DNA of 64,000 nt from Candidatus Thorarchaeota archaeon (GTDB taxonomy: Archaea; Asgardarchaeota; Thorarchaeia; Thorarchaeales; Thorarchaeaceae). Shown piece by piece: positions 14,246 to 48,110 of this stretch (position 1 is the stretch's first letter; every line of letters starts with the position of its first letter). The translations under genes and the position numbers were made by a program. The notes beneath the pieces were generated by a model. The model was given only the letters and a program-made list of their open reading frames with translations. It had not been told where the DNA came from and did no database searches. The DNA is taken from the NCBI GenBank assembly GCA_003345555.1, contig PRDJ01000042.1, positions 12,282 to 76,281 of the forward strand, read 5' to 3'.

Positions 14246-15151
14246 ATGTACGAATACAAATCGCAGCAACGGACACTAGAATTCGGTGGTGTGAAGATCG
14301 GAGGAACACCGGGGCTTGCGCCGACAGTCCTCATAGGTTCCATTTTCTATTCGAAAGATAAGTTAGTGCTTGACCCGAAGGCTGGTGATATAGACAAGCC
14401 TCAGACGGACAGAGTTCTGACTGAAGTCGCAGATATGTCAGAAAGAACGGGGTTACCCAGCATGCTGGACGTAGTTGCATCCTCGTCACCCGCAATGAGG
14501 CGATACATCACCTACCTCGCCGACAAGACGAGTATGCCGCTGCTAATCGACGGGTCTGGCTCTCAAGACGTGAATCTCGCCGGCATAGAGATGGCGCGTG
14601 AGAATGGCATGCTGGACAGAGTAATGCTCAATTCATTGACCCCGGAGACTAGTAATGAAATGTACAGGAAGATGCAGGAGGCAGGTCTCAAGAGTGCAGT
14701 TATCCTTACATTCTCCAAGGATGCTATGTCTTCTGTAGCAAAAAGAACCGAACTCGCTGATCAAATCCTTGCAAAAGCCACAGACTCTGGATTGACCAAC
14801 CTGATAATCGACACTGGGGTTGTAGATATGCTCACTCTTGGACTTGCCTGCAAAGCCATGCAATCAATCAAGGACAAGCTTGGCTACCCGGTAGGATGCG
14901 GTGCCCATAATGCGGTGAACATGTGGGCCGGCTTGGTTCCAAAATTCGGGAAGGACGCGAAGAATCCGGCTCTTGTTGGATCGAGTCTCATGCCCGTTGT
15001 TCTTGGGGCCGACTTCGTGCTTTATGGTCCCGTGAAGCATGCAGGTATTGTATTTCCTTCTGTGGCCATGATTGACACGGCTCTCTCAGGCGTGCTGCTA
15101 GAGAAGAGAATCCGACCGGACCGACAGCATCCTCGCTTCAGAATCGGCTAG
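14246..15151 (+). CDS. mtrH: MtrH-family methyl-H4MPT:corrinoid methyltransferase (stand-alone)
   Basis: 301 aa. Strong resemblance to MtrH: FGGVKIGGTPGLAPTVL, GYPVGCGAHNAVNMW, GADFVLYGPVKHAGIVFPSVAMID. Confidence 0.85.
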   Translation: MYEYKSQQRTLEFGGVKIGGTPGLAPTVLIGSIFYSKDKLVLDPKAGDIDKPQTDRVLTEVADMSERTGLPSMLDVVASSSPAMRRYITYLADKTSMPLLIDGSGSQDVNLAGIEMARENGMLDRVMLNSLTPETSNEMYRKMQEAGLKSAVILTFSKDAMSSVAKRTELADQILAKATDSGLTNLIIDTGVVDMLTLGLACKAMQSIKDKLGYPVGCGAHNAVNMWAGLVPKFGKDAKNPALVGSSLMPVVLGADFVLYGPVKHAGIVFPSVAMIDTALSGVLLEKRIRPDRQHPRFRIG

Positions 15152-15162
15152 GTGATTCTGAC

Positions 15163-16818
15163 TTGTCAGGACCTATGCTTGTGTTTGAACCATCTGGCCA
15201 GAGGATTTACGTGTCTCATGCTACAACGGTGCTTGACGCAGCTCGCAGTCTTGGTCTTCCCATTCCTACAGACTGTGGAGGCCATGGCACATGCGGAAAG
15301 TGCAGGATTAAGTTTCAACCAGCGCCATTCCCGACTCAACGGGATTTGCAGCATCTATCCAAGGACGAACTGGCAGAAGGTATACGTCTGGCCTGCGAGC
15401 ACGTGATTGAAACAGACACGAGGGTTGTTCTTCCATTTCCTGAAGAGCAGGCCAAGATTCTGGTCTGGGGATCTTCGAAGGCTGCTGTGCAGAAACTGGA
15501 CAAAGGCCTTGTCGGACAGTTGGGAGTCGCAATAGACCTAGGCACGACAACCATAGTAGCTTACCTCATGGACCTGGGGACAGGTAGTCAGATTGAACAA
15601 CAGGCAATGCTCAACCCAGAGGTTGCCTATGGGGAGGACATCATGACGCGCATGGCCTATGTCATGAACGCGCATGAGGGCGGTGAGGAGCTCCGTCAAT
15701 GTGTGCTTCGCGGCATTGATGTGCTTCTCACGCGTCTTATTAGCGCAGCAGGAGTACTTCCCGACACTGTCTCTCGCATCTCGCTTGTGGGCAACACTGC
15801 CATGCACCATCTCTTTTTGGGATTGGACATCCACGGTCTGAGTCTTGCACCGTACAGACCAGCCATGTTGAAGTCACTCACGAAATCATCTGACGAAATC
15901 GGGCTCAAGTCCGTTCCAAAGGCTCAGGTATATGTTGCTCCGAATATTGAAGGTTTCATAGGCAGTGATACGGTAGGTCTTATTGTCTCACAAGGGCTTG
16001 GCTCTGTCAAGGGCACAGTGATGGGGATTGACATAGGAACCAACGCAGAGATAGTCCTCTCGGTTCGCGGGCGCCTCATATGTTGTTCAGCAGCAGCAGG
16101 TCCTGCGTTCGAAGGAGCAAGAATCAGGCTTGGCATGAGGGGCGAAGAGGGTGCGATAGAACACGTGCGTATCAACAATCCCTCAGAGCCGGCAGAATTG
16201 TCTGTGATAGGACAGGCTTCTCCTCGAGGCATTTGCGGCTCAGCTATCGTCGACATAGTCGCCGAGCTGTTGAGAACAGGTCTTGTAGACCGTACTGGAC
16301 GGATGCGAGACTCGAAGAGGATTGTTCATGAAGGCGGGTACGGTCTCTGCTACATCGTAGCAGAACCAGGCGAGTCTGACGCGGGCCGACGCATAGTGTT
16401 CACTCAGGAAGACGTAAGACAGGTCCAGCTTGCAAAGGCAGCAATTGCTACGGGTGCCGGGGTCCTAATGGATGAATGCGGCGTTACCTCTTATGATATT
16501 GATGCGCTTCTTCTAGCCGGCGCATTTGGAAACTACATCCGCCCTGAGAGTGCCTTAGCGATTGGTCTTCTTCCTGCGATCCCACTGGACAGAATCGTTC
16601 CGGTTGGAAACGCAGCAGGTGAGGGTGCCAAGAGGTTTCTTCTGTCCTTGAAAGAGAGGGCGGTTGCTGAGACGCTTAGCAGGAGCGTCAAGTACGTCAA
16701 TCTTGCTGCTCATCCAGCGTTTGCTGACAGGTTCTTGGAGGCCACAGCAATAGGTCAAGCTGGAGACGGTTCGAATCACAGCCATGTGCGGATAGCCAAC
16801 CACACTAGCAATCCGTAG
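15163..16818 (+). CDS. corrinoid activation/regeneration protein (RACo family: 2Fe-2S ferredoxin plus ASKHA ATPase)
   Basis: 551 aa; N-terminal CGGHGTCGKCR ferredoxin motif followed by a large ASKHA-like domain. Confidence 0.7.
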   Translation: MSGPMLVFEPSGQRIYVSHATTVLDAARSLGLPIPTDCGGHGTCGKCRIKFQPAPFPTQRDLQHLSKDELAEGIRLACEHVIETDTRVVLPFPEEQAKILVWGSSKAAVQKLDKGLVGQLGVAIDLGTTTIVAYLMDLGTGSQIEQQAMLNPEVAYGEDIMTRMAYVMNAHEGGEELRQCVLRGIDVLLTRLISAAGVLPDTVSRISLVGNTAMHHLFLGLDIHGLSLAPYRPAMLKSLTKSSDEIGLKSVPKAQVYVAPNIEGFIGSDTVGLIVSQGLGSVKGTVMGIDIGTNAEIVLSVRGRLICCSAAAGPAFEGARIRLGMRGEEGAIEHVRINNPSEPAELSVIGQASPRGICGSAIVDIVAELLRTGLVDRTGRMRDSKRIVHEGGYGLCYIVAEPGESDAGRRIVFTQEDVRQVQLAKAAIATGAGVLMDECGVTSYDIDALLLAGAFGNYIRPESALAIGLLPAIPLDRIVPVGNAAGEGAKRFLLSLKERAVAETLSRSVKYVNLAAHPAFADRFLEATAIGQAGDGSNHSHVRIANHTSNP

Positions 16819-17809: not shown

Positions 17810-19123
17810 TTGTACAAGAGGGGTCTCATGCTCGAAAGAATTCTCACCGATGAATTTAGGAATCAATTGAAAGCCACCTTCATGGACATACGTGAAACTC
17901 AGGAAAAGAAAGATGAGAACGAACTGGCGAAAGACGAGGAAAGACTGAGGCACAAGCTCATTGACAGTATTGAACCATATCGGTCCGATGTTGTGTTCGA
18001 CACGGATTATATGGTCTCTGCAGTCGACGGGTCCGGCTCAAGCGAACTCGCAACTCTCAACGATGTGAGGGTTCACCTACTGAGCACATCCACCATCGTG
18101 CTTGGCACAAATACGAAGAACGGTGCACCTTTCATGCCGATGGACAGAGTCACGCTGGAGGCCGCACTTGGTCGGGCACAACCGTATGTGAACTCCTATT
18201 GGCATTCAGGCGTGAGAGGGGATGCCAGAGAAAAGATGGCAGAGACGCTCGAAGATATCTACCCGGTCAGTAAAATACCGGATCTGATCCTGCCCTTCTT
18301 CAGAGACACAACAAACGGGCAGATACAGTCAATCGCGGACCTGTCGAACTCTCGGTATAGCGAGCACGCTGCAATGCTGCAAACCATGGAATCACTCATT
18401 TTCTATGGGCAGTTTCTTACAAATACCCACGTTCACGACGAACTCCGTAAGGCCTCCGAGTATGCCGCTGCTCGAGCCGTCATAACCAGTGACATCAGGC
18501 CGAAGTATGTGCTGCTTGACGGTGCCATGTCCATGTTCTTGCATCAGGTTGGCCAGTATCCTATAATGCCGACGGGCTTCATGCTAAGGGAGCTGTGTTC
18601 CGTTGCGCGTGACAAGCGCGTCGTATTGTGTGCGGTAAGCAAGAGTCATACGATTCCGGGCGCGGATCGAATTGCAGAGTTGGCTGAAGAGGTGATCGGC
18701 AAGAGCAACAAGTGGTTTTGTTTCCTTCCCGGTCAAGACGACCCCGGCGGAGGTCTTCACATTCTGGAGAAGCGAACATATATTCCGCCACCCTTGGCCG
18801 TGCCCTACTTGTTCAGCTTTTCTCAGGACAACCGGCCATCGCGGATTGACTTCGACAGAGTATGGTGGCTTCAGGACATATTCGTGGCAGGTGACCCAAA
18901 GAAGACGAGGCAAAACGAAAAAGCGCTCTTTCGGGATATTGAGTTCATGTCAAGAGATGCTCGGTGGTATGGTTACCCCGTTGCTCTCGCGTTGGCACAT
19001 GAGGAATGCAAGTTGAGCTACGAAGACCTAAGACTTGCGAAGGAAATCGCTGATGATGTTCTTCAGGAATTGGGAATGGGTATTCGAAGAACTGTGGAAC
19101 TGAGAGAAGACTACAATTTATAG
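17810..19123 (+). CDS. nurA: NurA-like 5'-3' nuclease
   Basis: 437 aa; AVDGSGS motif resembling the NurA IDGS catalytic motif; directly upstream of herA-mre11-rad50. Confidence 0.55.
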   Translation: MYKRGLMLERILTDEFRNQLKATFMDIRETQEKKDENELAKDEERLRHKLIDSIEPYRSDVVFDTDYMVSAVDGSGSSELATLNDVRVHLLSTSTIVLGTNTKNGAPFMPMDRVTLEAALGRAQPYVNSYWHSGVRGDAREKMAETLEDIYPVSKIPDLILPFFRDTTNGQIQSIADLSNSRYSEHAAMLQTMESLIFYGQFLTNTHVHDELRKASEYAAARAVITSDIRPKYVLLDGAMSMFLHQVGQYPIMPTGFMLRELCSVARDKRVVLCAVSKSHTIPGADRIAELAEEVIGKSNKWFCFLPGQDDPGGGLHILEKRTYIPPPLAVPYLFSFSQDNRPSRIDFDRVWWLQDIFVAGDPKKTRQNEKALFRDIEFMSRDARWYGYPVALALAHEECKLSYEDLRLAKEIADDVLQELGMGIRRTVELREDYNL

Positions 19124-19142
19124 ATACTACGAGTGATGCGCT

Positions 19143-20906
19143 ATGACTCTGGATGTGAAAACCCTCGGCGACTTGTACGGCAAGGTAGCAATAGGGAATC
19201 AGGCCATGCTTGGGATTATGGGAAACAACCGTGATATCAGCGTCGGTGAGATATTCATGGTGTATTCCCAGAGAGACGGACACGAGCGAGTGTTCTTCTT
19301 CCGTGTCTCAGCCCTCCAAAACTACCTGCGTCATGTGGACGACATGGCGCGCGTAGCTGGCACATTGATGATTGAAGGGGACGCGTATCTCTCAGGCATC
19401 AAGAGAGACATGCTACTCGAAGTCGAAGGAAAGATGCTTGGGTACGCAGAAATGGAGAACGGGAAATACGCCTTCAAATCGCCGCGCCGTCTTCCTGACC
19501 ATCTTGCTGATGTGTACCGACCAGTCCCCGGTGTCTCCGACAAGACCGTAAGGGAAATGCTGTCTAGTCAAACAGGCGGCGAAGTGCTCATCGGAGACCT
19601 ACAAGTTGGCGAGGCCACGCTAGATGTCCCGGTGGGCATACCTGCGAAGTTCCTTCCAATGCACATGGGAATCTATGGGTCCACAGGTTCTGGAAAAAGC
19701 AACCTGATGATGGTGATGATCAAATCCATTTTGGATTCAAATCTCGAGGGAATTCGCAGTCCGAATGAGCCTCGTACCCGTATCTCGGCCTTCTGCATAG
19801 ACCCGCACGACGAGTTCGCCAAGGGTGTCACGAAGTTCGGAATCCAGAACGTAGTGGAGGCAATGGATCAGGACACTAGGTCGGCGGTCATAGGTGACTT
19901 CTACTACCTTACAACGCATCTCAAGGCCACTCCTCGGGAAATCCAGCGATATGGCAGGGAGATACGTATCCTATGGGAAGAGATCCTGCCGCACGATCTC
20001 TATACCATCATGGACTTCACTCCACAAATGGTATCCTTCATTGATGCTCAGTATGCCATTAACAAAGAGAACTGGATATCGGCAATACTTGACCTGACGG
20101 AAGACCCCGACATGGTACAAAAGGGAACTCTGAATGCTGTCCAGCGACGCCTTCGATTCATTGAACGTTCGCCAATCTTCGTCCGTAGCGGTTCGTCTAT
20201 ACTAGATGATGTATTCGTGGCCATGGAGACGGGGCGCGTGCTCGTAGTCAACACCAGCCTGATGAGTGATACGGAGCAGTTTCTCCTTACGACAGTAGTC
20301 GCACGTTCGATATCCGATCTCAGAAGGGCCGCGAAAAGCAGCGGAACGCTGGGGGACTTCGAGACTCAGGGCCAGCTTAGGCTTCCCGCCCCATTCTTCG
20401 GCCGCATCAAGACCAAGGCAAGATCCTTCTACACGAAAGGTGGAAAGAGCGATGATTCTGGGGTACGCGATCCACGCGAAATGCCTGTGATTCTCGTGAC
20501 CGTTGAAGAAGCCCCTTCAATTCTCAATCCCCAACTGATGCAGGGGCAGTCGGTGTTCAAGGACATCTCTCGTCAAGGGCGGAAGTTCAACATAGGCCTC
20601 GTCGTGATAAGTCAGCAGGTCAGCGTTCTGGATAATGTGATACTGAGCCAGATGAACACCCAGGTCAATCTTCGACTCGGTAACGAGCATGAGATTCAAG
20701 CATGTGTCGATAATGCAAGCATCAACATATCGGGCATGGAGAACGAGTTCCGTGTCATGGTCAAAGGAGACGCGATACTCACAGCATCATATCGTGAGCT
20801 TCCTTTGCCTGTCCATGTACCTCTCTTCGATACATTGTTCGAACGTGACAAGGGAAAGTACAAACCATCAAAGACCGCACGGTCAAGCGAGAAACACACA
20901 CTCTGA
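19143..20906 (+). CDS. herA: HerA helicase/ATPase
   Basis: 587 aa; Walker A GSTGSGKS (FtsK/HerA type); Walker B-like VTVEEAP; operon context. Confidence 0.8.
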   Translation: MTLDVKTLGDLYGKVAIGNQAMLGIMGNNRDISVGEIFMVYSQRDGHERVFFFRVSALQNYLRHVDDMARVAGTLMIEGDAYLSGIKRDMLLEVEGKMLGYAEMENGKYAFKSPRRLPDHLADVYRPVPGVSDKTVREMLSSQTGGEVLIGDLQVGEATLDVPVGIPAKFLPMHMGIYGSTGSGKSNLMMVMIKSILDSNLEGIRSPNEPRTRISAFCIDPHDEFAKGVTKFGIQNVVEAMDQDTRSAVIGDFYYLTTHLKATPREIQRYGREIRILWEEILPHDLYTIMDFTPQMVSFIDAQYAINKENWISAILDLTEDPDMVQKGTLNAVQRRLRFIERSPIFVRSGSSILDDVFVAMETGRVLVVNTSLMSDTEQFLLTTVVARSISDLRRAAKSSGTLGDFETQGQLRLPAPFFGRIKTKARSFYTKGGKSDDSGVRDPREMPVILVTVEEAPSILNPQLMQGQSVFKDISRQGRKFNIGLVVISQQVSVLDNVILSQMNTQVNLRLGNEHEIQACVDNASINISGMENEFRVMVKGDAILTASYRELPLPVHVPLFDTLFERDKGKYKPSKTARSSEKHTL

Positions 20907-20914
20907 GGCGCATC

Positions 20915-22228
20915 TTGATGACTGCACGCATTGCGCACATATCGGACACCCATCTGGGCACGAGGCCTAGAGACGGGGTCAGGTCCGATGTCTGGGCAGT
21001 CGAGATGCGTACACGAGTCATCGAGAATGATTTCTATGAGCGCTTCGCAGAGATCTTTGACAGGATTGCCTCACTTGATCCTCCAGTCGACCTAGTCATA
21101 CACTCCGGTGATCTCTATGACTCACCGTCGGAAGAGAACCCCTCGCAGCCGCCGGTGGTAGCTCAGGAGACTGCGCTGTCAGTTCTGAAGAGCTTCACCG
21201 AGAAGACTGGAATTCCTGTTCTGATAATAGAGGGAAATCACGGGCTCTATAGATCAATGGATGTGTCATTGCTTGATTCTCTAAGAATGTCAATCTCTGG
21301 TCTCAATGTTGCCACGCATGTTGACCTCAAACAAGCATTCAACAAGAAAGAACCGCTGAAGTACTCTTACGACAAACTGGACGTCTTCTGTTTCCCATAC
21401 ATGAGCGCGAGTCTGTTGGAATCATCCGGCTTGGTAAACGAATTCAGTGACTGGATAATGACGAATCAGTCTCCTAGCAGCCGGAAGGCATCTGTTGCAG
21501 TAGTTCATGGAATGGATAGTGATCGAACACTTCCTCCATCTATCCTTAGTATGGGTTATAGCTACATTGCTCTTGGACACGATCACAAGCAGCACAAGCA
21601 TTCTGAGAATGCTTGGTACGCGGGATCGACTGAAAGATGGAGGTTCGATGAGGCAGGACAAAAGAAGGGCTTTCTCGTAGTCGAGATAGCGGCAAACGAA
21701 CGCCCGTCTGTGACCCCTGAATACATTCATTTCGCGCGTCCAGTCTTCAACCGAAGAATGACCACTGAGGATATTGGAAGCACCGAATCTCTGACTCAGA
21801 AAATCGATGCTTGGTTTTCTGAAAAGGGTATCAGGGGACCTTGGGATTCGTCAACTGCCGCTAGAATCAGGTTCGATTTTCGAGGGTCTTCTCGTATTGG
21901 TAATCTCGAAATCATGAATGCAATGGAAGCCTACAGAACGAAGGTCCTGCAATCGGGGTCTGATTACAACATAGCCCAGCTGACTTGGCATACTCGCCCG
22001 CCTGAAACCGAACCGAGTCTCACCGCATTTCCTGAAATCGAGTCCGAGTACCTTATCGAGAACCCCGAAGAGGATTTTCGCGCATACTTGGACACGATCA
22101 AAGGGCTTGACACACAGTTTGACCCCGCTCTCTTGACGAAAGTGGCTGTGCGAGCACTCAAGATGTCCGTAAAGAAAGGTGAAGACAAGCTTACACTCGA
22201 AACACTGTCGGAGGACGAGGGCAGATGA
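20915..22228 (+). CDS. mre11: Mre11 nuclease
   Basis: Phosphoesterase motifs in order: ISDTHLG, HSGDLYD, GNHG, ALGHDH, YAGSTER. Confidence 0.85.
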   Translation: MMTARIAHISDTHLGTRPRDGVRSDVWAVEMRTRVIENDFYERFAEIFDRIASLDPPVDLVIHSGDLYDSPSEENPSQPPVVAQETALSVLKSFTEKTGIPVLIIEGNHGLYRSMDVSLLDSLRMSISGLNVATHVDLKQAFNKKEPLKYSYDKLDVFCFPYMSASLLESSGLVNEFSDWIMTNQSPSSRKASVAVVHGMDSDRTLPPSILSMGYSYIALGHDHKQHKHSENAWYAGSTERWRFDEAGQKKGFLVVEIAANERPSVTPEYIHFARPVFNRRMTTEDIGSTESLTQKIDAWFSEKGIRGPWDSSTAARIRFDFRGSSRIGNLEIMNAMEAYRTKVLQSGSDYNIAQLTWHTRPPETEPSLTAFPEIESEYLIENPEEDFRAYLDTIKGLDTQFDPALLTKVAVRALKMSVKKGEDKLTLETLSEDEGR

Positions 22229-24315
22229 AGGTGCTGAGCATCAAACTCAGGAGCTTCAAGCCCTTCCGTAGTCTTCTCCTACCTGACGATGAAGGCGATC
22301 TTCCAGAAGGCTTGATACTGGTTCGAGGACCGAATTCCACAGGCAAGTCCTCGCTCTTCGAAGCAATACTGTGGGGTCTCTGGGGAGCAGACGCAGTGAA
22401 GCTCAACAACGATGAGCTTGTTAGCTTCGGTGCGGCGTCATGTGAAGTTACCATAATCTTTGAGATTGAGAAAAAGCAGTACAAGATTGTCAGGTCGTAC
22501 GGTTTGGATAAGCGTCTGTCTGTCACGCTCTACGCGAAGGCAAACGGCAACTGGAAACCCATAGCTGACAAGAGCAGTTCCGTGGCTACGAAGCTAGAAG
22601 AGATACTCAACCTCCAGCTGAACCAAGCTCTAAACACGCTTCTTGTCCGACAAGGGGAAGTCGCCACCATTGCCAGTGCTACTCCCTCTGAGCTGAGAGA
22701 GCTTCTTGTAAAGGTTTACAACATTGAGCTATTGGATAAGATGGAAACACATCTGGAGAGTCTTGAGTCAGATGTTGCATCCAAGGTCAAGACGCTGAAA
22801 GACAACTATGAGGCGCCTGAACTAATCGAGGAGAGAATCAGACAATCGGAATCCCGAATTCGCAAACAAGAAGAAGGGCTTGAGGCAAGAACCAACCAAC
22901 AGGCTGTCTTGCTCTCTCAGGTAGAGTCTCTTCCCAATCCGGCCATCCTTTCAGAAGTTCTCAAGCTCGATTCTGACGTAGAAGGAAAAGAACGCGAGTA
23001 CGAGTATGCCATAAGCAACAGAGACAGAGAGCTTGCCGATGCTGGACTAGTCGACTCGACAGATATAGTGGTCCGGGCCCGCCAAGAGGAACTTGCCAAG
23101 GAGTTCGAGCGACTAACTGAACAGCGCGCCAGAATCGAGTCGGATATCACAGATGCTGATCAAGAAATCGGTGGGCTGGCTAAGGTTGACAAAGACCTGC
23201 TCAAGCAAGTCGAGACGCTTCAAGGAGCTGCCGAGTCTGTGGGACAAGGAATGAAATGTCCCACCTGTGGGAAGGCTCTATCAGTGAAAGAGCGCGACGA
23301 GTTGGTAGGGCAATACAGAGCCACACTCAACAAGGACGCTTCGCGACGAGACGACCTATCCAAGCTGAAGACCAAGCTGGCCGCGAACAAGAGGATTACG
23401 GACGAGAGACTCAATACCATTCCTTCCGCTATTGAGGCATTGAAACGGCTTTCTGAGCGGCAAGCAGCAGTTGACGAAACAAAGGGGCGGGTGGAGGAGT
23501 CTAAGGGATTGCTGAAATCCTTCCTCAAGGAACATGATATGCCTCCTCTACACGATCTCCTTAGCCAGTTTAACGCCAATGACTTGGCTGAGCTGCAACG
23601 CATCGTAGACGCAAGAAGCATTCAGCTCGAGTCGCTGAATCGAGAGATTGAATCAGCAAAAGCGGAGCTAGACGATAGGCGCAGGGAGAAAGATGAACTC
23701 GAAGCCAGGGCTACCCGAATGAAAGAGATTGGCGCTGAGATTTCAGACATGGAGACACTTGTTGAGCATACGAAGTATGTGAGAAGGAATCTTGTGAAGG
23801 GATTCATCTCCGACTATGTTGTTCAGAAACGATTGATTGGCATAATCAGGGCGGCCACTAATCAATACGTTCAGTCGTTTACGAATGGTCAGTACACTCG
23901 TATTGACTTGGTGCCGACTCCGGCAATGGCAAAGTCCGGTGCTGGGTTAATGCTCAAAGTTCATGACGATCGCGACAATCAGGAAAAGAAGGCCAGCCAG
24001 CTTAGCTACGGGGACCGGACTGCGGTGAGTCTTGCGCTGAGACTCGGAATCAGTCGAACCATGAGTAGAATCCGACCTTTGAAGGACAGTCCCGCGTATT
24101 CTCCTCGGGTCCAATGCGTTCTTCTGGATGAGCCTCTAGGCGGTCTCGATAGAGAACGGAGGGCATCGGTCGTCAGGAATCTAACAAGCGATCAAAGCTT
24201 CAAACAGATATTCCTGATTACGCATACCGATGTCCAAGGATTGGAGGGTGTCTCCGTCATCGATGTCGCAAAAAGCGGCTCGGGAAGTACAGCTACGCTC
24301 ATCGCCACATCATAG
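22225..24315 (+). CDS. rad50: Rad50 ATPase (short coiled coil)
   Basis: Walker A GPNSTGKSS; zinc hook CPTCG; signature LSYGDRTAVSLALRL; Walker B VLLDEPLGGLD; H-loop ITHTD; 4-nt overlap with mre11. Confidence 0.85.
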   Translation: MKVLSIKLRSFKPFRSLLLPDDEGDLPEGLILVRGPNSTGKSSLFEAILWGLWGADAVKLNNDELVSFGAASCEVTIIFEIEKKQYKIVRSYGLDKRLSVTLYAKANGNWKPIADKSSSVATKLEEILNLQLNQALNTLLVRQGEVATIASATPSELRELLVKVYNIELLDKMETHLESLESDVASKVKTLKDNYEAPELIEERIRQSESRIRKQEEGLEARTNQQAVLLSQVESLPNPAILSEVLKLDSDVEGKEREYEYAISNRDRELADAGLVDSTDIVVRARQEELAKEFERLTEQRARIESDITDADQEIGGLAKVDKDLLKQVETLQGAAESVGQGMKCPTCGKALSVKERDELVGQYRATLNKDASRRDDLSKLKTKLAANKRITDERLNTIPSAIEALKRLSERQAAVDETKGRVEESKGLLKSFLKEHDMPPLHDLLSQFNANDLAELQRIVDARSIQLESLNREIESAKAELDDRRREKDELEARATRMKEIGAEISDMETLVEHTKYVRRNLVKGFISDYVVQKRLIGIIRAATNQYVQSFTNGQYTRIDLVPTPAMAKSGAGLMLKVHDDRDNQEKKASQLSYGDRTAVSLALRLGISRTMSRIRPLKDSPAYSPRVQCVLLDEPLGGLDRERRASVVRNLTSDQSFKQIFLITHTDVQGLEGVSVIDVAKSGSGSTATLIATS

Positions 24316-24372
24316 TCGTAAGGCAGGCGATGGAGAACAAGTATATCAGACAGCTTAGATGACCGCATATCT

Positions 24373-26196
24373 ATGCGCTTGGCCAAGCTGGCACCGCGTC
24401 TTGTGAATGGGCTTCTTGTTCAAGTCTCTGTGCTTGTCGTTCTTTATGTCACAGCCGTGGTCTGGGTGCTGGTTTCTGGCGGCGTCGTACAGGCTTACGT
24501 TCCCCAATTGATTATTCTTTACGCTGCGTTCGCCATATTGACTGTGGTCTTCAGGCGCTCTGTTGTCGAGTACTTGCCGCTGCTGCTAGTGCTGCAATTC
24601 GGCATGTTGGTATGGACTTCGGTTTTCAATGCTGCAGTGGCAGACTACCTTTCCGGCGGAGTGTGGAACAGCAGAGGAGTTTGGCTGGGTAATAGACCGA
24701 TCGACTTCTTCGGTTACACAATTCAACTTCGTTTGGAGGGTTATACCGACTACAGCTTCTTCTACGTTCATTGGGGACACAACATGTTGAATGGAGTGAT
24801 GCCATACAGTGACGCATTCGGTTACCTCGTAATGAACGGAATCACAAACAGAAATGGACTGTACATATTTCCTCCGTTCTACGCGTATCTCTATGCGGCT
24901 GGCATAGCCCTTCCTGTTGATGATTGGGGCATAGGACTACTGATTGCCTGTTTTGGATACCTGACTGTTCTGCCCGTGTACGGTCTTGGACGCGAGCTGT
25001 CAGCGAATAGGCATGTTGGGGAAGTTGCAGCTCTGACTTACCTGCTAAGCCCGAGTGTCCTCTATCATACTGATTTCGTATGGTTGAATCCCTCACCCTT
25101 CATCTTCTTCTTCTTTGCGGGGTTCTACATGCTGGTCCGAGGCAATCGACATACCGGCACGATCCTCATTTTGGTCTCGGCATTGTTCAAGCAGACGGCT
25201 TGGTTCTTGGGAATCCCCCTCGTTGTGTACCTTCTCATGAAGCCTCGGGTCGCCTCGCGGGCAAATCCTCCGGGCAACAGAAGTATTCTGGGTTCTGTTC
25301 GTGAGATACTAAGAGGAATTTCCAATGCACTCGATATACGAGGCTTCATGTTCAGTGTAGTGCTAGTAGTCATATTCGTCGGAGCGGTGATGTTTCCGTT
25401 CCTCTTGGCTCAACCGTATGTGCTGCTATTCATGAGCCTGGCCTCTGGAGGCTTTAGGCTCGAGTCATTCACTGAGCTTCCTTCATACGGAAGTCCAGCG
25501 CGGCTTCAAGTACTTCCTCTAGTTGCCTACCTTTCGATACCTGAGTCTAATCGGTCTGAACCTCTTGGTGTTTTTCTTCTATGGTTAACCCAGACTCTTG
25601 ATAACCTTGTCTTCAATGATTTCCTTCTGATCCTGGGGGTTGTGATATTCAGCGGTGTGATGCTGATTGAACCTAGGCGCGTTGGACGCGAGAAGCAGTA
25701 CATGAGGCGTCTGCTTTTCCTCACGATGATAATGATGCTTTGGGTCAATCTGACAGGACCGAGGGGTGTCTACAAATACTATTTCACATTGTTCGCGCCA
25801 TTTTTCTCACTTTTCTCATCTGCCCGAATCGTTGAGAGCAAGGAAGAGCATGTGCCATTTTCTTGGTCAATGCTCTGGCTTCCAGTCTCGATGAGTGCCA
25901 TGATTCTTATTCCAAGTCGCTATGTATACTTATTCGGAGTTCTTTTAATTATGATTGCATACTTGCTTGTTCATAGCGTAGGCACTTTCTGGTATATACT
26001 GACAACCCCGACTCGGTACATGTCAGATAGACTCAAGGGACACATGCATCATACGGCTTTTCTAGCGTCCGTCTTGGCGAGCAAAGTGAGAGGACTCAAC
26101 AGAGAAACAAGCCCATTGTCCGAAACCCTGCCTGATTCGGAAGCCATGCGTGAATCCGAAGGCAGAGGAGGCATGTCTAATGTTGGAAAGCCTTAA
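24373..26196 (+). CDS. GT-C fold integral membrane glycosyltransferase, PIG-M/DUF2029-like (paralog 1)
   Basis: 607 aa, at least 10 TM spans. First-loop motif GYTDYSFFYVHW...GVMPY (similar to the PIG-M YTDIDY...SPY motif), WLNPSPF, FKQTAWFLGIPLV. Confidence 0.5.
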   Translation: MRLAKLAPRLVNGLLVQVSVLVVLYVTAVVWVLVSGGVVQAYVPQLIILYAAFAILTVVFRRSVVEYLPLLLVLQFGMLVWTSVFNAAVADYLSGGVWNSRGVWLGNRPIDFFGYTIQLRLEGYTDYSFFYVHWGHNMLNGVMPYSDAFGYLVMNGITNRNGLYIFPPFYAYLYAAGIALPVDDWGIGLLIACFGYLTVLPVYGLGRELSANRHVGEVAALTYLLSPSVLYHTDFVWLNPSPFIFFFFAGFYMLVRGNRHTGTILILVSALFKQTAWFLGIPLVVYLLMKPRVASRANPPGNRSILGSVREILRGISNALDIRGFMFSVVLVVIFVGAVMFPFLLAQPYVLLFMSLASGGFRLESFTELPSYGSPARLQVLPLVAYLSIPESNRSEPLGVFLLWLTQTLDNLVFNDFLLILGVVIFSGVMLIEPRRVGREKQYMRRLLFLTMIMMLWVNLTGPRGVYKYYFTLFAPFFSLFSSARIVESKEEHVPFSWSMLWLPVSMSAMILIPSRYVYLFGVLLIMIAYLLVHSVGTFWYILTTPTRYMSDRLKGHMHHTAFLASVLASKVRGLNRETSPLSETLPDSEAMRESEGRGGMSNVGKP

Positions 26197-27700
26197 TCGC
26201 GCTCTTCGTAGGATTGTCCTAATCCTGTTCAAATACAGGATACTCCTTGTGATACTCATATCGGCCTGTCTTGTTTGGGCGTGGATATTCAATCTGGCCG
26301 CGGCGGATTTCATTGAAGGTGGGTCGAGGCCTTTCAGAGCGGCCTGGAACGGATATGGCGCAATCAACGTCGCGGGATTGACGATTCCGCTGAACCTTGA
26401 GGGTTGGGCTGACTACGACTACTACTACATCAGTTGGGCAGACCAGTTTCTAAGAGGCGTTCAGCCTTACACAACCGAATTCGATTATCAAACGATTGGT
26501 GGCACAGTATACAACATTCCGTATTTCTTTCCCCCTCTGTTCTTGTATCTGTGCGCATTCGGGAGGGTGCTGCCGATTCAACCGTTTGGAATCGGATTGG
26601 TCATTACAGTGTTTGGCTATCTCACGGCTTTGCCGATATACGGGGTCGGAAAGTATCTCTCCGACAACCCGCATGTGGGAGAAATCGCAGCTGCAACGTA
26701 TCTCTTCAATCCAATTGTGCTTTATCACACAGTGGTTGATTGGCTAAATCCAGCTCCGTTTGTCTTCTTTGTCATGCTTTCCATCTATCTGATAGTCTCT
26801 GGCCACAGGGTCTCCGGTGTCCTTGCAATGGCGACCGCGGCAATGTTCAAGCAGACGGCGTTCGTGCTAGCCATACCTCTAGTCTGCTTCTTCCTGAGAA
26901 GACCTCCTCAGAAAGATGTGGCTCCCGAAACCGAGGCTCTTCAGGAGGGAAAGAGGTCCCTTCCGAGCGACAAGCTCGACTTGCGAAGTTTCTCAAAGAT
27001 CGTTCTGGTTGTTCTATTGTATGCGGTCGCCCTTTCTGTTCCATACTTGTTAGACCCGCTGAACTATGGATACTTCATCTTTCAGCGTGCAGGTGCCTTT
27101 CTATTGACCGATTTAGCGACACCTCCCGGCGACGGGCTGCCTATGACCTTGGCTGTCATTCTCATTGTGATGCATGCACCGGAGTGGTTAATCCAAGGTG
27201 TGAATCTAATGACGTATTACTCGGTCGGTCTCATCCTCGGGCTTTTGCCCATCCTCGTACAGATGCTTATCGAAATGAAGGATGACCGCAATCTGACCGG
27301 ATATTGGCGAAGGATGCTCTATCTCACATTATTGCTCCTACTCTGGATTCACCTCTTCTCGCCACGGGGAATCTACAAGTACTACCTAGTCGCGCTTGTA
27401 CCCTTCTTCTCGATCTTGTCGTCAACGACTATGTGCTCCAAAGAGTCTGGCGAATTTCGTCCGTCACTCCCGATGGTCGTTAACCCATTTGTGATCAGTA
27501 TACTGATTATTGTGCCCGACAGAACCATCTACATGCTATACTTGATACTAATCCTTCTATCATATGTCTTCTACAGACAGCTTGGCTTGGCATACAGACT
27601 TCTTGGCCGGACCTTCAGGCGAGGTATGAACGGCCTTCGCCACCTACGAGGGCATTCGGAGCCTCCAAGTTCGTCGAGTACTCTTGCGGAAGGAAGATGA
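26150..27700 (+). CDS. GT-C fold integral membrane glycosyltransferase, PIG-M/DUF2029-like (paralog 2)
   Basis: 516 aa with matching motifs ADYDYYYISWADQF...GVQPY, WLNPAPF, FKQTAFVLAIPLV, RGIYKYY. The annotated start overlaps paralog 1 by 47 nt; the true start may be 26180. Confidence 0.5.
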   Translation: MNPKAEEACLMLESLNRALRRIVLILFKYRILLVILISACLVWAWIFNLAAADFIEGGSRPFRAAWNGYGAINVAGLTIPLNLEGWADYDYYYISWADQFLRGVQPYTTEFDYQTIGGTVYNIPYFFPPLFLYLCAFGRVLPIQPFGIGLVITVFGYLTALPIYGVGKYLSDNPHVGEIAAATYLFNPIVLYHTVVDWLNPAPFVFFVMLSIYLIVSGHRVSGVLAMATAAMFKQTAFVLAIPLVCFFLRRPPQKDVAPETEALQEGKRSLPSDKLDLRSFSKIVLVVLLYAVALSVPYLLDPLNYGYFIFQRAGAFLLTDLATPPGDGLPMTLAVILIVMHAPEWLIQGVNLMTYYSVGLILGLLPILVQMLIEMKDDRNLTGYWRRMLYLTLLLLLWIHLFSPRGIYKYYLVALVPFFSILSSTTMCSKESGEFRPSLPMVVNPFVISILIIVPDRTIYMLYLILILLSYVFYRQLGLAYRLLGRTFRRGMNGLRHLRGHSEPPSSSSTLAEGR

Positions 27701-28891
27701 TTAGGAGGCTTGCTTGTCAAATTCCTCTCTCTTCTCAGCAAGTCTCCTGTCTAGGCTAGCTAACCGTTCGTCCAGTTTTTCAACCTGCTCATCATAGCTC
27801 TCTCTTGTCATAGTGCCAGTGGAGAGTTTCTGTTCTATGTGATCTCGGAGCTGATGAACTGACTTGATTTCCTTCTCGATAGAATCGATGTCAGCTATTA
27901 TCTCCTCGATTCTGTTCTCTTCCTCGGATTTGAATTGTTTCGCGGGCACCATGAGTCCGAACTGTTGTTGTGTCTTTTCCGCAAAGTCTTGGAATTGACC
28001 TCTGAGCCCTTCGATGCTCTTCTCGATTCTCCCCGTGTTCTCTGTGAGTCTCGCTATGTCTTTTTGTAAATCAATGACTGCATTGACAAGTCTGCGGAGT
28101 GTCTTGTCTATCTCGGCTTCGAAAGTGACCTGTGCGCCCTCACCAGCCGAGGGTCTTTCCTCTGCGGCCTTCGCTTGTGCCGCAACCACACGGCTAGGCC
28201 TTGTCAGTCGGTCTTCTCCTGTAAGCCATCTGAAACAGTTGAGTGCGAAGGTTGTGTTACCGTCGTTCTTCAAACCTCCCCCTCTTCGGAATATCTCATA
28301 GGTCCCGATGCAGATGACCCTCCCCCGCTCGAAGTCTGCGGCAGCTATGACAGGCTGATTTGGCGGATCCGCAGCCCCCGATGTTGCTGCTATGGCCATT
28401 GCCTTTCCCGAAAGCCTCAAGGTGCATGATGATGGCAGCAAGATATTGTTGATTCCTTCGGTTATTGAATGTTGGACGAAGCCTGATATCATGAGCAGAG
28501 TTGGAAGACCTGCGTTGTCTCTTTCATCCTTGACTGCCGTGTTGTCGAACTCGATACCAAAGTTCTTCGACAACAGGCTCATATTGGTCATGAGCCCCTT
28601 GTCGCCGCCAGAGAGCGACAGCAACATCAATCCGCCGCCGTCCTGAACAAACTTCTTGATGGCATCAATTTCATTGGACCGAAGCTTGGAGCCATTCGGG
28701 CAGGCAAACACGAGAGCGTCAATTCCTTCCAGCTTCTTGGGCATTATCATATACTCTGTATATGCCTCGACGTCATAGTCATTGTCTTTGAGAAGCTGAC
28801 CGAGCTGTGAATAAGTCGTGTCTAAGCGTCCTCTCTCGTTCTGAGTCTGGTCAAATGCAATTCGCTTTCTCCTCGCGCTCACGTTGCGCAC
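27701..28891 (-). CDS. hypothetical protein: ThuA/GATase1-like N-terminal domain plus C-terminal coiled coil
   Basis: 396 aa; IDALVFACPNGSKL...GGGLMLL pattern, then a long heptad-rich tail. Confidence 0.35.
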   Translation of the reverse strand: MRNVSARRKRIAFDQTQNERGRLDTTYSQLGQLLKDNDYDVEAYTEYMIMPKKLEGIDALVFACPNGSKLRSNEIDAIKKFVQDGGGLMLLSLSGGDKGLMTNMSLLSKNFGIEFDNTAVKDERDNAGLPTLLMISGFVQHSITEGINNILLPSSCTLRLSGKAMAIAATSGAADPPNQPVIAAADFERGRVICIGTYEIFRRGGGLKNDGNTTFALNCFRWLTGEDRLTRPSRVVAAQAKAAEERPSAGEGAQVTFEAEIDKTLRRLVNAVIDLQKDIARLTENTGRIEKSIEGLRGQFQDFAEKTQQQFGLMVPAKQFKSEEENRIEEIIADIDSIEKEIKSVHQLRDHIEQKLSTGTMTRESYDEQVEKLDERLASLDRRLAEKREEFDKQAS

Positions 28892-46597: not shown

Positions 46598-46723
46598 ACT
46601 GGTATTAGTCGATGCATGCTGGTGTTTGGCTAGCTAGTGCACTTGGTACTCTCCAAATGGATTGTCCCGTCCGGATTGGTTATATTACGGGAAGCAAGTT
46701 TCGGAACACAAGGCGAATCACGC

Positions 46724-48109: not shown

Positions 48110-48110
48110 G

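What the first reader, a model, noticed from the sequence alone, without database searches (positions are those of the whole stretch)
24373..27700. Tandem paralogous PIG-M/DUF2029-like GT-C glycosyltransferases with overlapping reading frames
Two large polytopic proteins share a series of collinear motifs: a YTD/ADY...PY first-loop motif, WLNPxPF, FKQTAxxLxIPLV and RG[VI]YKYY. These resemble the eukaryotic GPI mannosyltransferase PIG-M (GT50) and the related DUF2029 family. The second ORF begins 47 nt inside the first. This suggests recent duplication of a lipid-linked glycan mannosyltransferase, which is a eukaryote-like feature in an archaeon.
Basis: partly seen in the sequence, partly recalled or inferred. 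Interest (0 to 1): 0.55.

Follow-up and report, generated by a model that had tools for sequence, protein, structure and literature searches.

The report
Ancient tandem pair of membrane glycosyltransferases
Two neighbouring genes of a Thorarchaeota (Asgard) archaeon encode related membrane sugar-transferases of an unnamed Asgard-only family that distantly resembles the eukaryotic GPI-anchor enzymes PIG-M and PIG-U; the pair is old and conserved, not a recent duplication, and it is a modest addition to an already reported Asgard-eukaryote link.

Summary
ORF1 (24373-26196) and ORF2 are paralogs (38% identity over 464 aa, E 6e-86), and all four motifs are present. The window matches a Candidatus Thorarchaeota MAG, where both proteins are annotated as hypothetical.

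ORF2 most likely starts at ATG 26180, which has a conserved GGAGG upstream, so the overlap is 17 nt rather than 47.

The duplication is ancient. The two ortholog clades are reciprocally monophyletic. 42 of 60 species-representative loci carry the same A->B tandem in the same synteny. B was lost from the locus at least three times.

Both proteins are GT-C fold enzymes with 12 and 14 predicted TM helices. No Pfam family claims them consistently: there is no PF05007 or PF09594 hit, ORF2 alone passes PF06728 (PIG-U), and that model also hits authentic PIG-M.

The closest solved structures are PIG-U and Gpi14 (PIG-M). A profile of the wider Asgard family aligns to PIG-M at E 4.4e-8 and places ORF2 D78-Y-D80 on the catalytic D49-x-D51. 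ORF1-type proteins have Ser or Thr at the second position.

Best reading: two polyprenyl-phosphate-sugar glycosyltransferases acting at the outer membrane face; the acceptor is unknown. Classification: new member of a known kind. Interest is moderate to low.

The parts
24339..24348 (+). TATA-like A/T box (AAGTATATCA) 25-34 nt upstream of the ORF1 ATG; candidate archaeal promoter for a leaderless bicistronic transcript
   Evidence: Read directly from the sequence. A comparable A/T box lies about 25-35 nt upstream of the ORF1 ortholog in L001, L002 and L003. Promoter function is inferred, not shown.
24373..26196 (+). ORF1, the 'A-type' GT-C paralog: 607 aa, about 14 TM helices (12-TM core plus 2 extra N-terminal TM helices found only in its closest relatives)
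   Evidence: ORF. 100% identical to hypothetical protein C4K47_05960 of a Thorarchaeota MAG. AF2 model pLDDT 77.6, pTM 0.78. Foldseek top hits are PIG-U and Gpi14. N-terminal extension seen in the alignment. Helix and K/R map.
24736..24762 (+). ORF1 first-loop motif EGYTDYSFF: E122 and D126 conserved; S128 occupies the position of the second Asp of a DxD
   Evidence: Among 119 A-type proteins, E, G and D are in all 119, and the +2 position is S or T in 118 and never D.
25081..25101 (+). ORF1 WLNPSPF motif
25186..25200 (+). ORF1 FKQTA motif; the Lys matches ORF2 K224, which the profile alignment places on PIG-M K180
25759..25782 (+). ORF1 PRGVYKYY motif, in the predicted outer loop between core TM9 and TM10
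26165..26171 (+). Shine-Dalgarno-like GAGGAGG inside the 3' end of ORF1, 8 nt upstream of the ORF2 ATG
   Evidence: GGAGG lies 8-11 nt before the ATG at the same junction in L001-L003.
26180..26196 (+). 17-nt overlap between the ORF1 3' end and the likely ORF2 start (47 nt if GTG 26150 were used)
26180..27700 (+). ORF2, the 'B-type' GT-C paralog: 506 aa from ATG 26180, 12 predicted TM helices, N- and C-termini cytoplasmic
   Evidence: 100% identical to C4K47_05965 (506 aa). AF2 model pLDDT 80.3, pTM 0.82. Foldseek hits: PIG-U E 1.6e-4; Gpi14 E 6e-4 with TM-score 0.53/0.64. Pfam PF06728 at 42.8 bits. K/R-rich loops alternate as expected for this topology.
26399..26425 (+). ORF2 first-loop motif EGWADYDYY: the D78-Y-D80-Y81 DxD-plus-aromatic motif aligns with the catalytic D49-I-D51-Y52 of PIG-M
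   Evidence: The second Asp is present in 107 of 119 B-type proteins.
26741..26761 (+). ORF2 WLNPAPF motif
26846..26860 (+). ORF2 FKQTA motif (K224 aligned to PIG-M K180)
27362..27385 (+). ORF2 PRGIYKYY motif in the outer loop between TM9 and TM10; candidate donor-phosphate binding site (inferred)

Best explanation
ORF1 (A-type) and ORF2 (B-type) are an ancient, co-inherited tandem pair of paralogous GT-C fold glycosyltransferases. They belong to an unnamed family that this analysis found only in Asgard archaea. They are probably transcribed together from a promoter of their own, and ORF2 is probably translationally coupled to ORF1 through a Shine-Dalgarno site inside the ORF1 3' end.

Each protein has a 12-TM core with the N-terminus in the cytoplasm. 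A long first extracytoplasmic loop carries the invariant E-G-[WY]-x-D motif.

By analogy with PIG-M/Gpi14, PimE and ALG6, the loop Asp (D126 in ORF1, D78 in ORF2) would activate an acceptor hydroxyl at the outer face of the cytoplasmic membrane. That hydroxyl would then attack a polyprenyl (dolichyl)-phosphate-hexose donor, most likely Dol-P-mannose. The conserved Lys (FKQTA) and the PRGxYKYY loop would hold the donor phosphate.

The paralogs differ consistently at the second DxD position (B: Asp; A: Ser/Thr), and B has been lost repeatedly while A has not. So they most likely catalyse two different, probably consecutive, steps on a lipid-linked or surface glycan rather than forming an obligate complex.

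Shown here: paralogy, fold, motif conservation, age of the duplication, synteny and the homology link to PIG-M. Inferred: donor, acceptor, catalytic roles of individual residues, operon structure and topology.
For: Paralogy: 38% identity, E 6e-86.

Fold: AF2 models reach pLDDT 80.3 and 77.6. All meaningful Foldseek PDB hits are GT-C enzymes, led by PIG-U (E 1.6e-4) and Gpi14 bound to Dol-P-Man (E 6e-4; TM-score 0.53/0.64), followed by AglB, ALG3, PimE, STT3 and ALG9.

Pfam: hits in the two ORFs, their orthologs and the wider family fall almost entirely on GT-C clan models, namely PIG-U, Alg6_Alg8, PMT_2, GT87, ALG3, Mannosyl_trans4 and DUF2079.

Profile-profile link: the merged Asgard family profile against PIG-M gives 94.9% probability, E 4.4e-8 over 221 columns. 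It maps D78=D49, D80=D51, G93=G65, P96-Y97=P68-Y69, K224=K180 and P233=P189. Reversed and shuffled controls give E 0.2-0.8.

The catalytic role of the PIG-M DxD, and its absence from PIG-U, come from PMC12653191 and PMC6056205.

Motif conservation: E, G and D are in 119 of 119 proteins of each type, and PRGxYKYY is in 119/120 (B) and 112/120 (A).

Topology: K/R-rich segments at the N-terminus, residues 240-267, 365-377, 419-429 and the C-terminal tail alternate with K/R-poor loops, including the first loop.

Age and co-inheritance: the A and B clades are reciprocally monophyletic with congruent subtrees. 42 of 60 loci are A->B tandems, and every B with enough upstream sequence has A upstream. 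The synteny Rad50-A-B-(GIFT)-HIT is conserved.

Coupling: a GGAGG before the B-type ATG is conserved at four junctions.
Against: No enzymatic or glycan data exist for any member. No Pfam, NCBIfam or PDB sequence profile assigns the two ORFs consistently: ORF1 has no Pfam or NCBIfam hit at all, and four profile searches of PDB sequences found no GT-C.

Alignments of the two ortholog groups alone do not reach PIG-M in hhalign; the link goes through more distant Asgard relatives and covers only the N-terminal conserved module.

Foldseek E-values are modest (about 1e-4), with TM-scores near 0.5.

The window contains no other glycosylation gene that would indicate a pathway or an acceptor.

A-type proteins lack the residue equivalent to the proposed catalytic base of PIG-M, so A could be inactive or work differently.

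Operon structure and topology are predictions.
Confidence: 0.72

Rival explanations
1. The two proteins are true orthologs of the eukaryotic GPI mannosyltransferase PIG-M (GT50) or of GT87/DUF2029. They mannosylate a GPI-like glucosaminyl-inositol lipid, so this archaeon makes GPI-type anchors.
For: Gpi14 is the best structural match by TM-score and rmsd. The family profile aligns to PIG-M with the DxD, G..PY, LNP, K and P positions in register. PMC12872458 reports GPI-anchor synthesis components as Asgard-derived.
Against: PF05007 hits neither ORF nor any of about 130 relatives scanned, and PF09594 hits only distant relatives weakly. The alignment to PIG-M covers only the conserved GT-C module. 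The variable C-terminal module, which shapes acceptor binding, does not align. ALG3, PMT_2 and Alg6_Alg8 models hit relatives about as well. No PIG-X/Pbn1-like partner or any inositol-lipid gene lies nearby.
Confidence: 0.1
2. The pair works as a heteromeric enzyme. B-type (with DxD) is the catalytic subunit. A-type (DxS/T) is a non-catalytic or lipid-presenting partner, analogous to the split between PIG-M and PIG-U or to paired GT-Cs such as Pmt1-Pmt2.
For: There is a consistent difference at the position aligned to the PIG-M catalytic base: D in 107/119 B-type proteins and S or T in 118/119 A-type proteins. The junction is tight and SD-coupled, and every B has A directly upstream (42/42). 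PIG-U is a PIG-M relative that lost its DxD.
Against: Seven species-representative genomes have Rad50-A-GIFT with no B at the locus, in at least three separate places of the A tree, so A functions without an adjacent B. A keeps every other family-wide invariant (E, D, K, PRGxYKYY). In the wider Asgard family the second DxD position is not Asp either, so E...D appears to be the ancestral catalytic pair. No complex prediction could be run.
Confidence: 0.12
3. ORF2 is an archaeal ortholog of PIG-U, the non-catalytic GPI-binding subunit of GPI transamidase, as its Pfam label would suggest.
For: PF06728 scores 42.8 bits against a gathering score of 24.5. PIG-U chains have the lowest Foldseek E-values.
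Against: Only 1 of 26 B-type orthologs hits PF06728, and only profile positions 56-225 of 378 are matched. Authentic PIG-M proteins also carry PF06728 hits, so the model does not discriminate. PIG-U is defined by loss of the DxD (SSW in its place), whereas ORF2 keeps D-Y-D-Y. No PIG-K, PIG-T or GAA1-like gene is in the window.
Confidence: 0.03
4. The two genes are a recent duplication, or the overlap marks a frameshifted or mis-assembled single gene.
For: They are adjacent, on the same strand, collinear in motifs, and their reading frames overlap.
Against: They are only 38% identical. Each has its own ortholog clade, with within-clade distances of 0.65 and 0.75 against 1.21 between clades. The tandem and the surrounding synteny are conserved across Thorarchaeota. 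Each ORF encodes a complete 12-TM core. Orthologous junctions have an overlap or gap of a few nucleotides with a conserved SD.
Confidence: 0.01
5. They are GT-C-like membrane proteins with a function other than single-sugar transfer, for example a Wzy/EpsG-type glycan polymerase or a lipid-linked glycan binding or translocating protein.
For: The consensus of distant relatives weakly hits EpsG (E 2.8e-6, below its cutoff). No family assignment is firm, and no biochemical data exist.
Against: The acidic first-loop motif, the Lys and the late outer-loop basic/aromatic motif are all invariant, which is the pattern of catalytic GT-C enzymes. The structural neighbours are all glycosyltransferases or their derivative PIG-U.
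Confidence: 0.05

Closest known systems
PIG-M / Gpi14, catalytic subunit of GPI mannosyltransferase I (CAZy GT50, Pfam PF05007)
   Same: Both have a 12-TM GT-C architecture with a cytoplasmic N-terminus. It is the best structural match by TM-score (9wno_A: 0.53/0.64 for ORF2). The family profile aligns over the conserved module at E 4.4e-8. ORF2 D78-Y-D80-Y81 falls on the catalytic D49-I-D51-Y52, and G..PY, [YW]L.NP, K and P are also in register. The presumed donor, a polyprenyl-phosphate sugar, is an inference.
   Different: No PF05007 hit. The C-terminal variable module does not align. ORF1-type proteins lack the second Asp. The long first loop carries a beta-hairpin, and the PRGxYKYY motif is specific to the Asgard family. 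No PIG-X/Pbn1 partner was seen. The host is an archaeon, so the enzyme would sit in the cytoplasmic membrane rather than the ER.
PIG-U / Cdc91 (Gab1), GPI transamidase subunit (Pfam PF06728)
   Same: It has the lowest Foldseek E-values (8imx_U, 7wld_U, 7w72_U). ORF2 passes the PF06728 gathering score. Both have 12 TM helices.
   Different: PIG-U has lost the first-loop DxD (SSW instead) and is thought to be non-catalytic. Both ORFs keep the invariant E...D, and ORF2 keeps a full DxD. The PF06728 hit is partial, occurs in 1 of 26 orthologs, and the model also hits PIG-M.
PimE and GT87 (Pfam PF09594, formerly DUF2029); MptA (TIGR03459)
   Same: Both are polyprenyl-phosphate-mannose dependent GT-C enzymes of prokaryotes. 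PimE is among the structural hits for ORF2 (9dm7_A, E 1.3e-2). GT87 hits occur in 4/29 and 14/49 distant Asgard relatives. ORF2 has a weak TIGR03459 hit.
   Different: Neither ORF hits PF09594. The structural similarity is lower (TM-score 0.39/0.50).
ALG3 (GT58) and ALG6/ALG8 (GT57), lumenal enzymes of N-glycan precursor assembly
   Same: GT-C fold, Dol-P-sugar donors, action on a lipid-linked oligosaccharide after flipping. ALG3 9s6r_A and ALG6 6snh_X are structural hits. Alg6_Alg8 hits occur in 5/26 B-type orthologs, and ALG3 hits in 14/49 distant relatives.
   Different: All hits are below or near threshold and limited to the conserved module. No evidence links the pair to an AglB/N-glycosylation locus.
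Paired paralogous GT-C enzymes (Pmt1-Pmt2, EmbA-EmbB); comparison drawn from general knowledge, not tested here
   Same: Two paralogous GT-C proteins kept together over long evolutionary times.
   Different: Those pairs form physical complexes. Here A-type occurs without B-type at the locus in 7 genomes, and no interaction was tested.

Membership tests
GT-C glycosyltransferase superfamily (Pfam clan CL0111) | Polytopic membrane protein with the GT-C fold | tested here: met
   AF2 models have pTM 0.82 and 0.78. The top 25 (ORF2) and top 29 (ORF1) Foldseek PDB hits are all GT-C proteins.
GT-C glycosyltransferase superfamily (Pfam clan CL0111) | Conserved acidic motif (DxD, ExD, DE or similar) in the first extracytoplasmic loop | tested here: met
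   E-G-[WY]-x-D is present in 119/119 A-type and 119/119 B-type proteins. The loop follows TM1, and the N-terminus is K/R-rich. The outside location is inferred from the positive-inside rule and the fold.
GT-C glycosyltransferase superfamily (Pfam clan CL0111) | Uses a polyprenyl-phosphate-linked sugar donor | not testable with these tools
   Requires biochemistry.
GT50 / PIG-M (PF05007) | Match to the family profile above threshold | tested here: not met
   No PF05007 hit at E<=10 for either ORF. None at E<=0.01 among 129 scanned orthologs and relatives, and none for the consensus sequences.
GT50 / PIG-M (PF05007) | Catalytic DxD followed by an aromatic residue in the first lumenal loop | tested here: inconclusive
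   ORF2 has D78-Y-D80-Y81 aligned to D49-I-D51-Y52, so it meets the feature. ORF1 has D126-Y-S128-F, so it does not.
GT50 / PIG-M (PF05007) | Homology along the whole protein, including the variable C-terminal module | tested here: not met
   hhalign covers ORF2 residues 25-304 against PIG-M 21-266 only, and only through the wider family profile.
GT50 / PIG-M (PF05007) | Acts on GlcN-(acyl)PI together with a PIG-X/Pbn1 partner | not testable with these tools
   No candidate partner in the neighbourhood. The substrate needs biochemistry.
PIG-U (PF06728) | Match to the family profile above the gathering score | tested here: inconclusive
   ORF2 scores 42.8 bits against 24.5; ORF1 has no hit. Only 1 of 26 B-type orthologs hits the model. 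The model also hits authentic PIG-M.
PIG-U (PF06728) | Loss of the catalytic first-loop acidic motif (non-catalytic GPI-binding subunit) | tested here: not met
   Both ORFs keep the invariant E...D, and ORF2 keeps DxD.
PIG-U (PF06728) | Part of a transamidase complex with PIG-K, PIG-T, PIG-S and GAA1 | not tested
   None of these is in the 64-kb window. The rest of the genome was not available.
GT87 / DUF2029 (PF09594) | Match to the family profile above threshold | tested here: not met
   No hit for either ORF or their orthologs. Only sub-threshold or weak hits in distant Asgard relatives.

The most novel reading that the evidence does not exclude
The A/B pair, and the wider Asgard family it belongs to, could be the prokaryotic stock from which both eukaryotic PIG-M (catalytic, DxD) and PIG-U (DxD lost) arose. 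Thorarchaeota would then already use it to build or handle a GPI-like glycolipid anchor, with B-type as the mannosyltransferase and A-type moving towards a lipid-presenting role.
Probability: 0.06. Interest if true: 0.75.

Novelty: new member of a known kind. Interest (0 to 1): 0.3.

Why it matters
If the assignment holds, Thorarchaeota carry a conserved two-gene module for glycan assembly at the outer membrane face, from a GT-C family that current Pfam and NCBIfam models do not capture. Its nearest detectable relatives are the eukaryotic GPI-pathway proteins PIG-M and PIG-U. This gives a concrete, testable pair of proteins, with named candidate catalytic residues, for asking what Asgard archaea glycosylate and whether GPI-type chemistry predates eukaryotes. 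The general claim that eukaryotic GPI and lumenal glycosylation enzymes derive from Asgard archaea is already published (PMC12872458). The contribution here is therefore an annotation and a hypothesis, not a new principle.

Tried and rejected
- HMM profile searches of PDB sequences with four alignments (A1, A2, A4, A5) found no GT-C, only a chance glucosylceramidase match at E 0.3-0.9.
- hhalign of the A-type, B-type or combined ortholog alignments directly against PIG-M was not significant. Only profiles that include distant Asgard relatives reached PIG-M.
- NCBIfam gave only a weak MptA hit for ORF2.
- Pfam scans of consensus sequences did not sharpen the assignment.
- Pfam scans of 20 other window ORFs found no glycosylation, GPI or dolichol-pathway gene.
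- Literature searches found no paper describing this family or an Asgard PIG-U.
- A first tree attempt with all 250 sequences timed out and was repeated on subsets.
- Frameshift, mis-assembly and recent duplication were considered and rejected on the tree, the synteny and the conserved junctions.
- Linkage to the upstream HerA-Mre11-Rad50 genes was considered. It is conserved synteny, but a 57-nt gap with a TATA-like box suggests separate transcription, and no functional link is proposed.
The preference for PIG-M over those families therefore rests on Foldseek ranks alone.

Full report
**What is in the sequence**

The region holds two + strand ORFs: 24373..26196 (607 aa) and 26150..27700 (516 aa if read from GTG 26150). 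BLASTP between them gives 38% identity over 464 residues, E 6e-86.
- EGYTDYSFF / EGWADYDYY, followed by ...PY
- WLNPSPF / WLNPAPF
- FKQTA...IPLV in both
- PRGVYKYY / PRGIYKYY

Both proteins are 100% identical to hypothetical proteins C4K47_05960 and C4K47_05965 of a Candidatus Thorarchaeota MAG, so the host is an Asgard archaeon.

**Start of ORF2 and the overlap**

The public protein is 506 aa, which corresponds to ATG 26180. GAGGAGG sits at 26165-26171, 8 nt upstream of that ATG. The same GGAGG-spacer-ATG arrangement precedes the orthologous gene in three other Thorarchaeota genomes. There the two genes overlap by 1 nt or are 4 or 11 nt apart.

The overlap here is therefore most likely 17 nt (26180-26196), not 47. 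It reflects ordinary tight coupling and not a frameshift. The C-terminal tails of ORF1 orthologs are unconserved, so the overlap costs little.

Upstream of ORF1 there is a 57-nt gap after Rad50. It contains an AAGTATATCA box 25-34 nt before the ATG. Comparable A/T boxes occur in the three other loci. This suggests a separate promoter and a leaderless transcript, which is an inference.

**Age of the duplication**

Each ORF has its own set of orthologs at about 47-75% identity, and many carry adjacent locus tags.

In neighbour-joining trees the ORF1-type (A) and ORF2-type (B) proteins are reciprocally monophyletic. Mean distances are 0.65 and 0.75 within the clades and 1.21 between them. The two subtrees are largely congruent.

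A scan of one genome per species returned 60 loci, all labelled Thorarchaeota, 'Promethearchaeota', Hermodarchaeota or simply (uncultured) archaeon:
- 42 loci are A->B tandems on one strand.
- Every B with enough upstream sequence has A directly upstream.
- 7 loci read Rad50-A-(GIFT)-HIT with no B. These sit in at least three separate places inside the A clade, which indicates repeated loss of B at this locus.

The surrounding order HerA-Mre11-Rad50-A-B-(GIFT, opposite strand)-HIT-(PCC)-PolB is conserved. 'Recent duplication' is therefore rejected.

**Family assignment by sequence**

- ORF1 hits nothing in Pfam or NCBIfam.
- ORF2 hits PF06728 (PIG-U) at 42.8 bits, against a gathering score of 24.5, but only over profile positions 56-225 of 378. 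It also has a weak MptA (TIGR03459) hit.
- Among 26 B-type orthologs, 5 hit Alg6_Alg8 and 1 hits PIG-U. Among 25 A-type orthologs, 2 hit PMT_2 and 2 hit DUF2079.

An exhaustive profile search of 1.84 billion representative proteins found only 251 relatives at E<=1e-3. Every member that carries a source name is from an Asgard lineage: Thor-, Sigyn-, Hel-, Odin-, Hod- or Heimdallarchaeota. These distant relatives hit Mannosyl_trans4, PIG-U, GT87, PMT_2 and ALG3.

PF05007 (PIG-M) never hits. Profile searches of PDB sequences find no GT-C.

The family therefore lies inside the GT-C clan but belongs to no described family.

**Fold and link to PIG-M**

The AF2 models are good: ORF2 has pLDDT 80.3 and pTM 0.82; ORF1 has 77.6 and 0.78.

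Foldseek against the PDB ranks the hits in this order for both models:
1. Human PIG-U chains (E 1.6e-4 to 5.5e-4 for ORF2).
2. Candida glabrata Gpi14 (PIG-M) bound to Dol-P-Man (E 6e-4). For ORF2 it has the best TM-score (0.53/0.64) and the lowest rmsd (5.9 Å).
3. Yeast GPI transamidase, AglB and ALG3, then PimE (ORF2 model only), STT3 and ALG9.

I used a human PIG-M sequence recalled from memory as a search bait. It proved 100% identical to a database protein. From the hits I built a vertebrate PIG-M alignment.

A merged profile of 113 Asgard family members, with ORF2 as master, aligns to that PIG-M alignment with 94.9% probability and E 4.4e-8 over 221 columns. Reversed and column-shuffled controls give E 0.2-0.8. 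The alignment maps the following residues:

| ORF2 | PIG-M |
|---|---|
| D78 | D49 |
| D80 | D51 |
| Y81 | Y52 |
| G93 | G65 |
| P96-Y97 | P68-Y69 |
| Y-L-F-N-P178 | W-L-L-N-P135 |
| K224 | K180 |
| P233 | P189 |

The A-type and B-type alignments alone do not reach significance, so the link is transitive and limited to the conserved N-terminal module.

Authentic PIG-M proteins also carry PF06728 hits. The PIG-U label on ORF2 therefore does not separate PIG-U from PIG-M-like proteins.

**Catalytic motif**

In PIG-M/Gpi14 the first-loop DxD is essential, and the second Asp is the proposed catalytic base. PIG-U has SSW at that position and is considered non-catalytic (PMC12653191 and PMC6056205).

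In this family:
- E, G and D of E-G-[WY]-x-D are present in 119/119 proteins of each type.
- B-type proteins have Asp at +2 (a true DxD plus aromatic) in 107/119.
- A-type proteins have Ser or Thr there in 118/119, never Asp.
- In the wider Asgard family the +2 position is variable, while E...D is kept in the 41 of 80 distant relatives where the motif pattern was found.

So E74/D78 (E122/D126 in ORF1) look like the ancestral catalytic pair, and the second Asp of B-type is a clade-specific addition. Both paralogs keep K224 (FKQTA) and PRGxYKYY.

**Topology (inferred)**

AF2 helices combined with K/R counts give a 12-TM core for ORF2. The following segments are K/R-rich and assigned to the cytoplasm:
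- the N-terminus
- residues 240-267
- residues 365-377
- residues 419-429
- the C-terminal amphipathic helix

The first loop (47-118; a beta-hairpin plus the helix carrying the motif) and the PRGxYKYY loop (393-400) are assigned to the outside. This matches the 12-TM layout described for Gpi14.

ORF1 has two extra N-terminal TM helices, shared only with its closest relatives. Many other A-type orthologs instead have a C-terminal extension of about 230 aa made of further TM helices.

**Most likely function**

These are two polyprenyl-phosphate-sugar dependent GT-C glycosyltransferases acting at the outer face of the cytoplasmic membrane. The donor is probably Dol-P-mannose, because most of the nearest families are mannosyltransferases.

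They are co-expressed from a bicistronic unit and probably catalyse distinct steps on a lipid-linked or surface glycan. An obligate heteromer is less likely because A persists without B in seven genomes.

The acceptor cannot be decided. The window holds no other glycosylation gene.

**Comparison and novelty**

The pair works like PIG-M, PimE or ALG3-type enzymes but fails the profile tests for GT50 and GT87. ORF2 contradicts the defining feature of PIG-U.

It is best described as a new member of the GT-C kind, in an Asgard-restricted family close to the PIG-M/PIG-U group.

A 2026 study already reports GPI-anchor synthesis, transamidase and lumenal glycosyltransferases as Asgard-derived (PMC12872458). 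The general 'eukaryote-like' point is therefore not new. Interest is moderate to low (0.3).

[quoted passage not shown] I give it about 6% probability.

Noticed in passing
window 27701-28891 (- strand): The convergent downstream gene (396 aa) has an IFT52-type GIFT domain (PF23355, E 8.9e-16) followed by a long C-terminal coiled coil, and I saw no obvious TM segment on reading it. It abuts or overlaps the 3' end of ORF2 and is a conserved neighbour in every Thorarchaeota locus examined, including those that lack the B-type gene.
   Followed up: partly
window 17810-24315 (+ strand): A DNA-repair cluster, HerA (DUF87)-Mre11-Rad50, lies directly upstream of the pair. It is preceded by a 437-aa ORF with no Pfam hit, which could be a divergent NurA. 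The cluster and the GT-C pair are syntenic across Thorarchaeota, with no evident functional link.
   Followed up: partly
L048, L049, L052, L054, L056, L059, L063 (about 3.3-3.9 kb downstream of the A-type gene): Seven species-representative genomes have Rad50-A-GIFT-HIT with the B-type gene missing from the locus, at three or more separate positions in the A tree. Whether B lies elsewhere in those genomes was not determined.
   Followed up: partly
L005 and L051 (both from Thorarchaeota MAG OWC3, PRDI01): The same MAG carries two A-type genes on different contigs (63% and 59% identical to ORF1). This could be a second copy, strain heterogeneity or a binning artefact.
   Followed up: no
window 24373-24560 (ORF1 residues 1-63); P0206, P0229 and P0215 C-termini: A-type proteins vary in architecture. 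This lineage has two extra N-terminal TM helices. Many other orthologs (about 720-810 aa) instead have a C-terminal extension of about 230 aa made of further TM helices.
   Followed up: partly
P0256, P0265 and other ~600-650 aa Asgard relatives (alignment A4): A second tier of the family has an N-terminal TM helix, an apparently extracytoplasmic domain of about 140 aa that looks beta-rich, and a further TM helix before the GT-C core. JGI names one 'Gpi18-like mannosyltransferase' and NCBI names a cluster mate 'ArnT family glycosyltransferase'.
   Followed up: no
window 46637-49460 (+ strand): Two adjacent TldD/PmbA-family metallopeptidase paralogs (490 and 449 aa), another tandem paralog pair in the same window.
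   Followed up: no
window 14246-16818 (+ strand): An MtrH-family methyltransferase next to a RACo-type corrinoid activation protein (Fer2 + RACo middle + RACo C-terminal domains), suggesting methyl-corrinoid metabolism.
   Followed up: no
window 11509-13317 (- strand): A 602-aa protein with DUF11 and DUF7507 repeat domains. These repeats suggest a surface protein, so it is a possible glycosylation substrate, but it is not adjacent to the pair.
   Followed up: no
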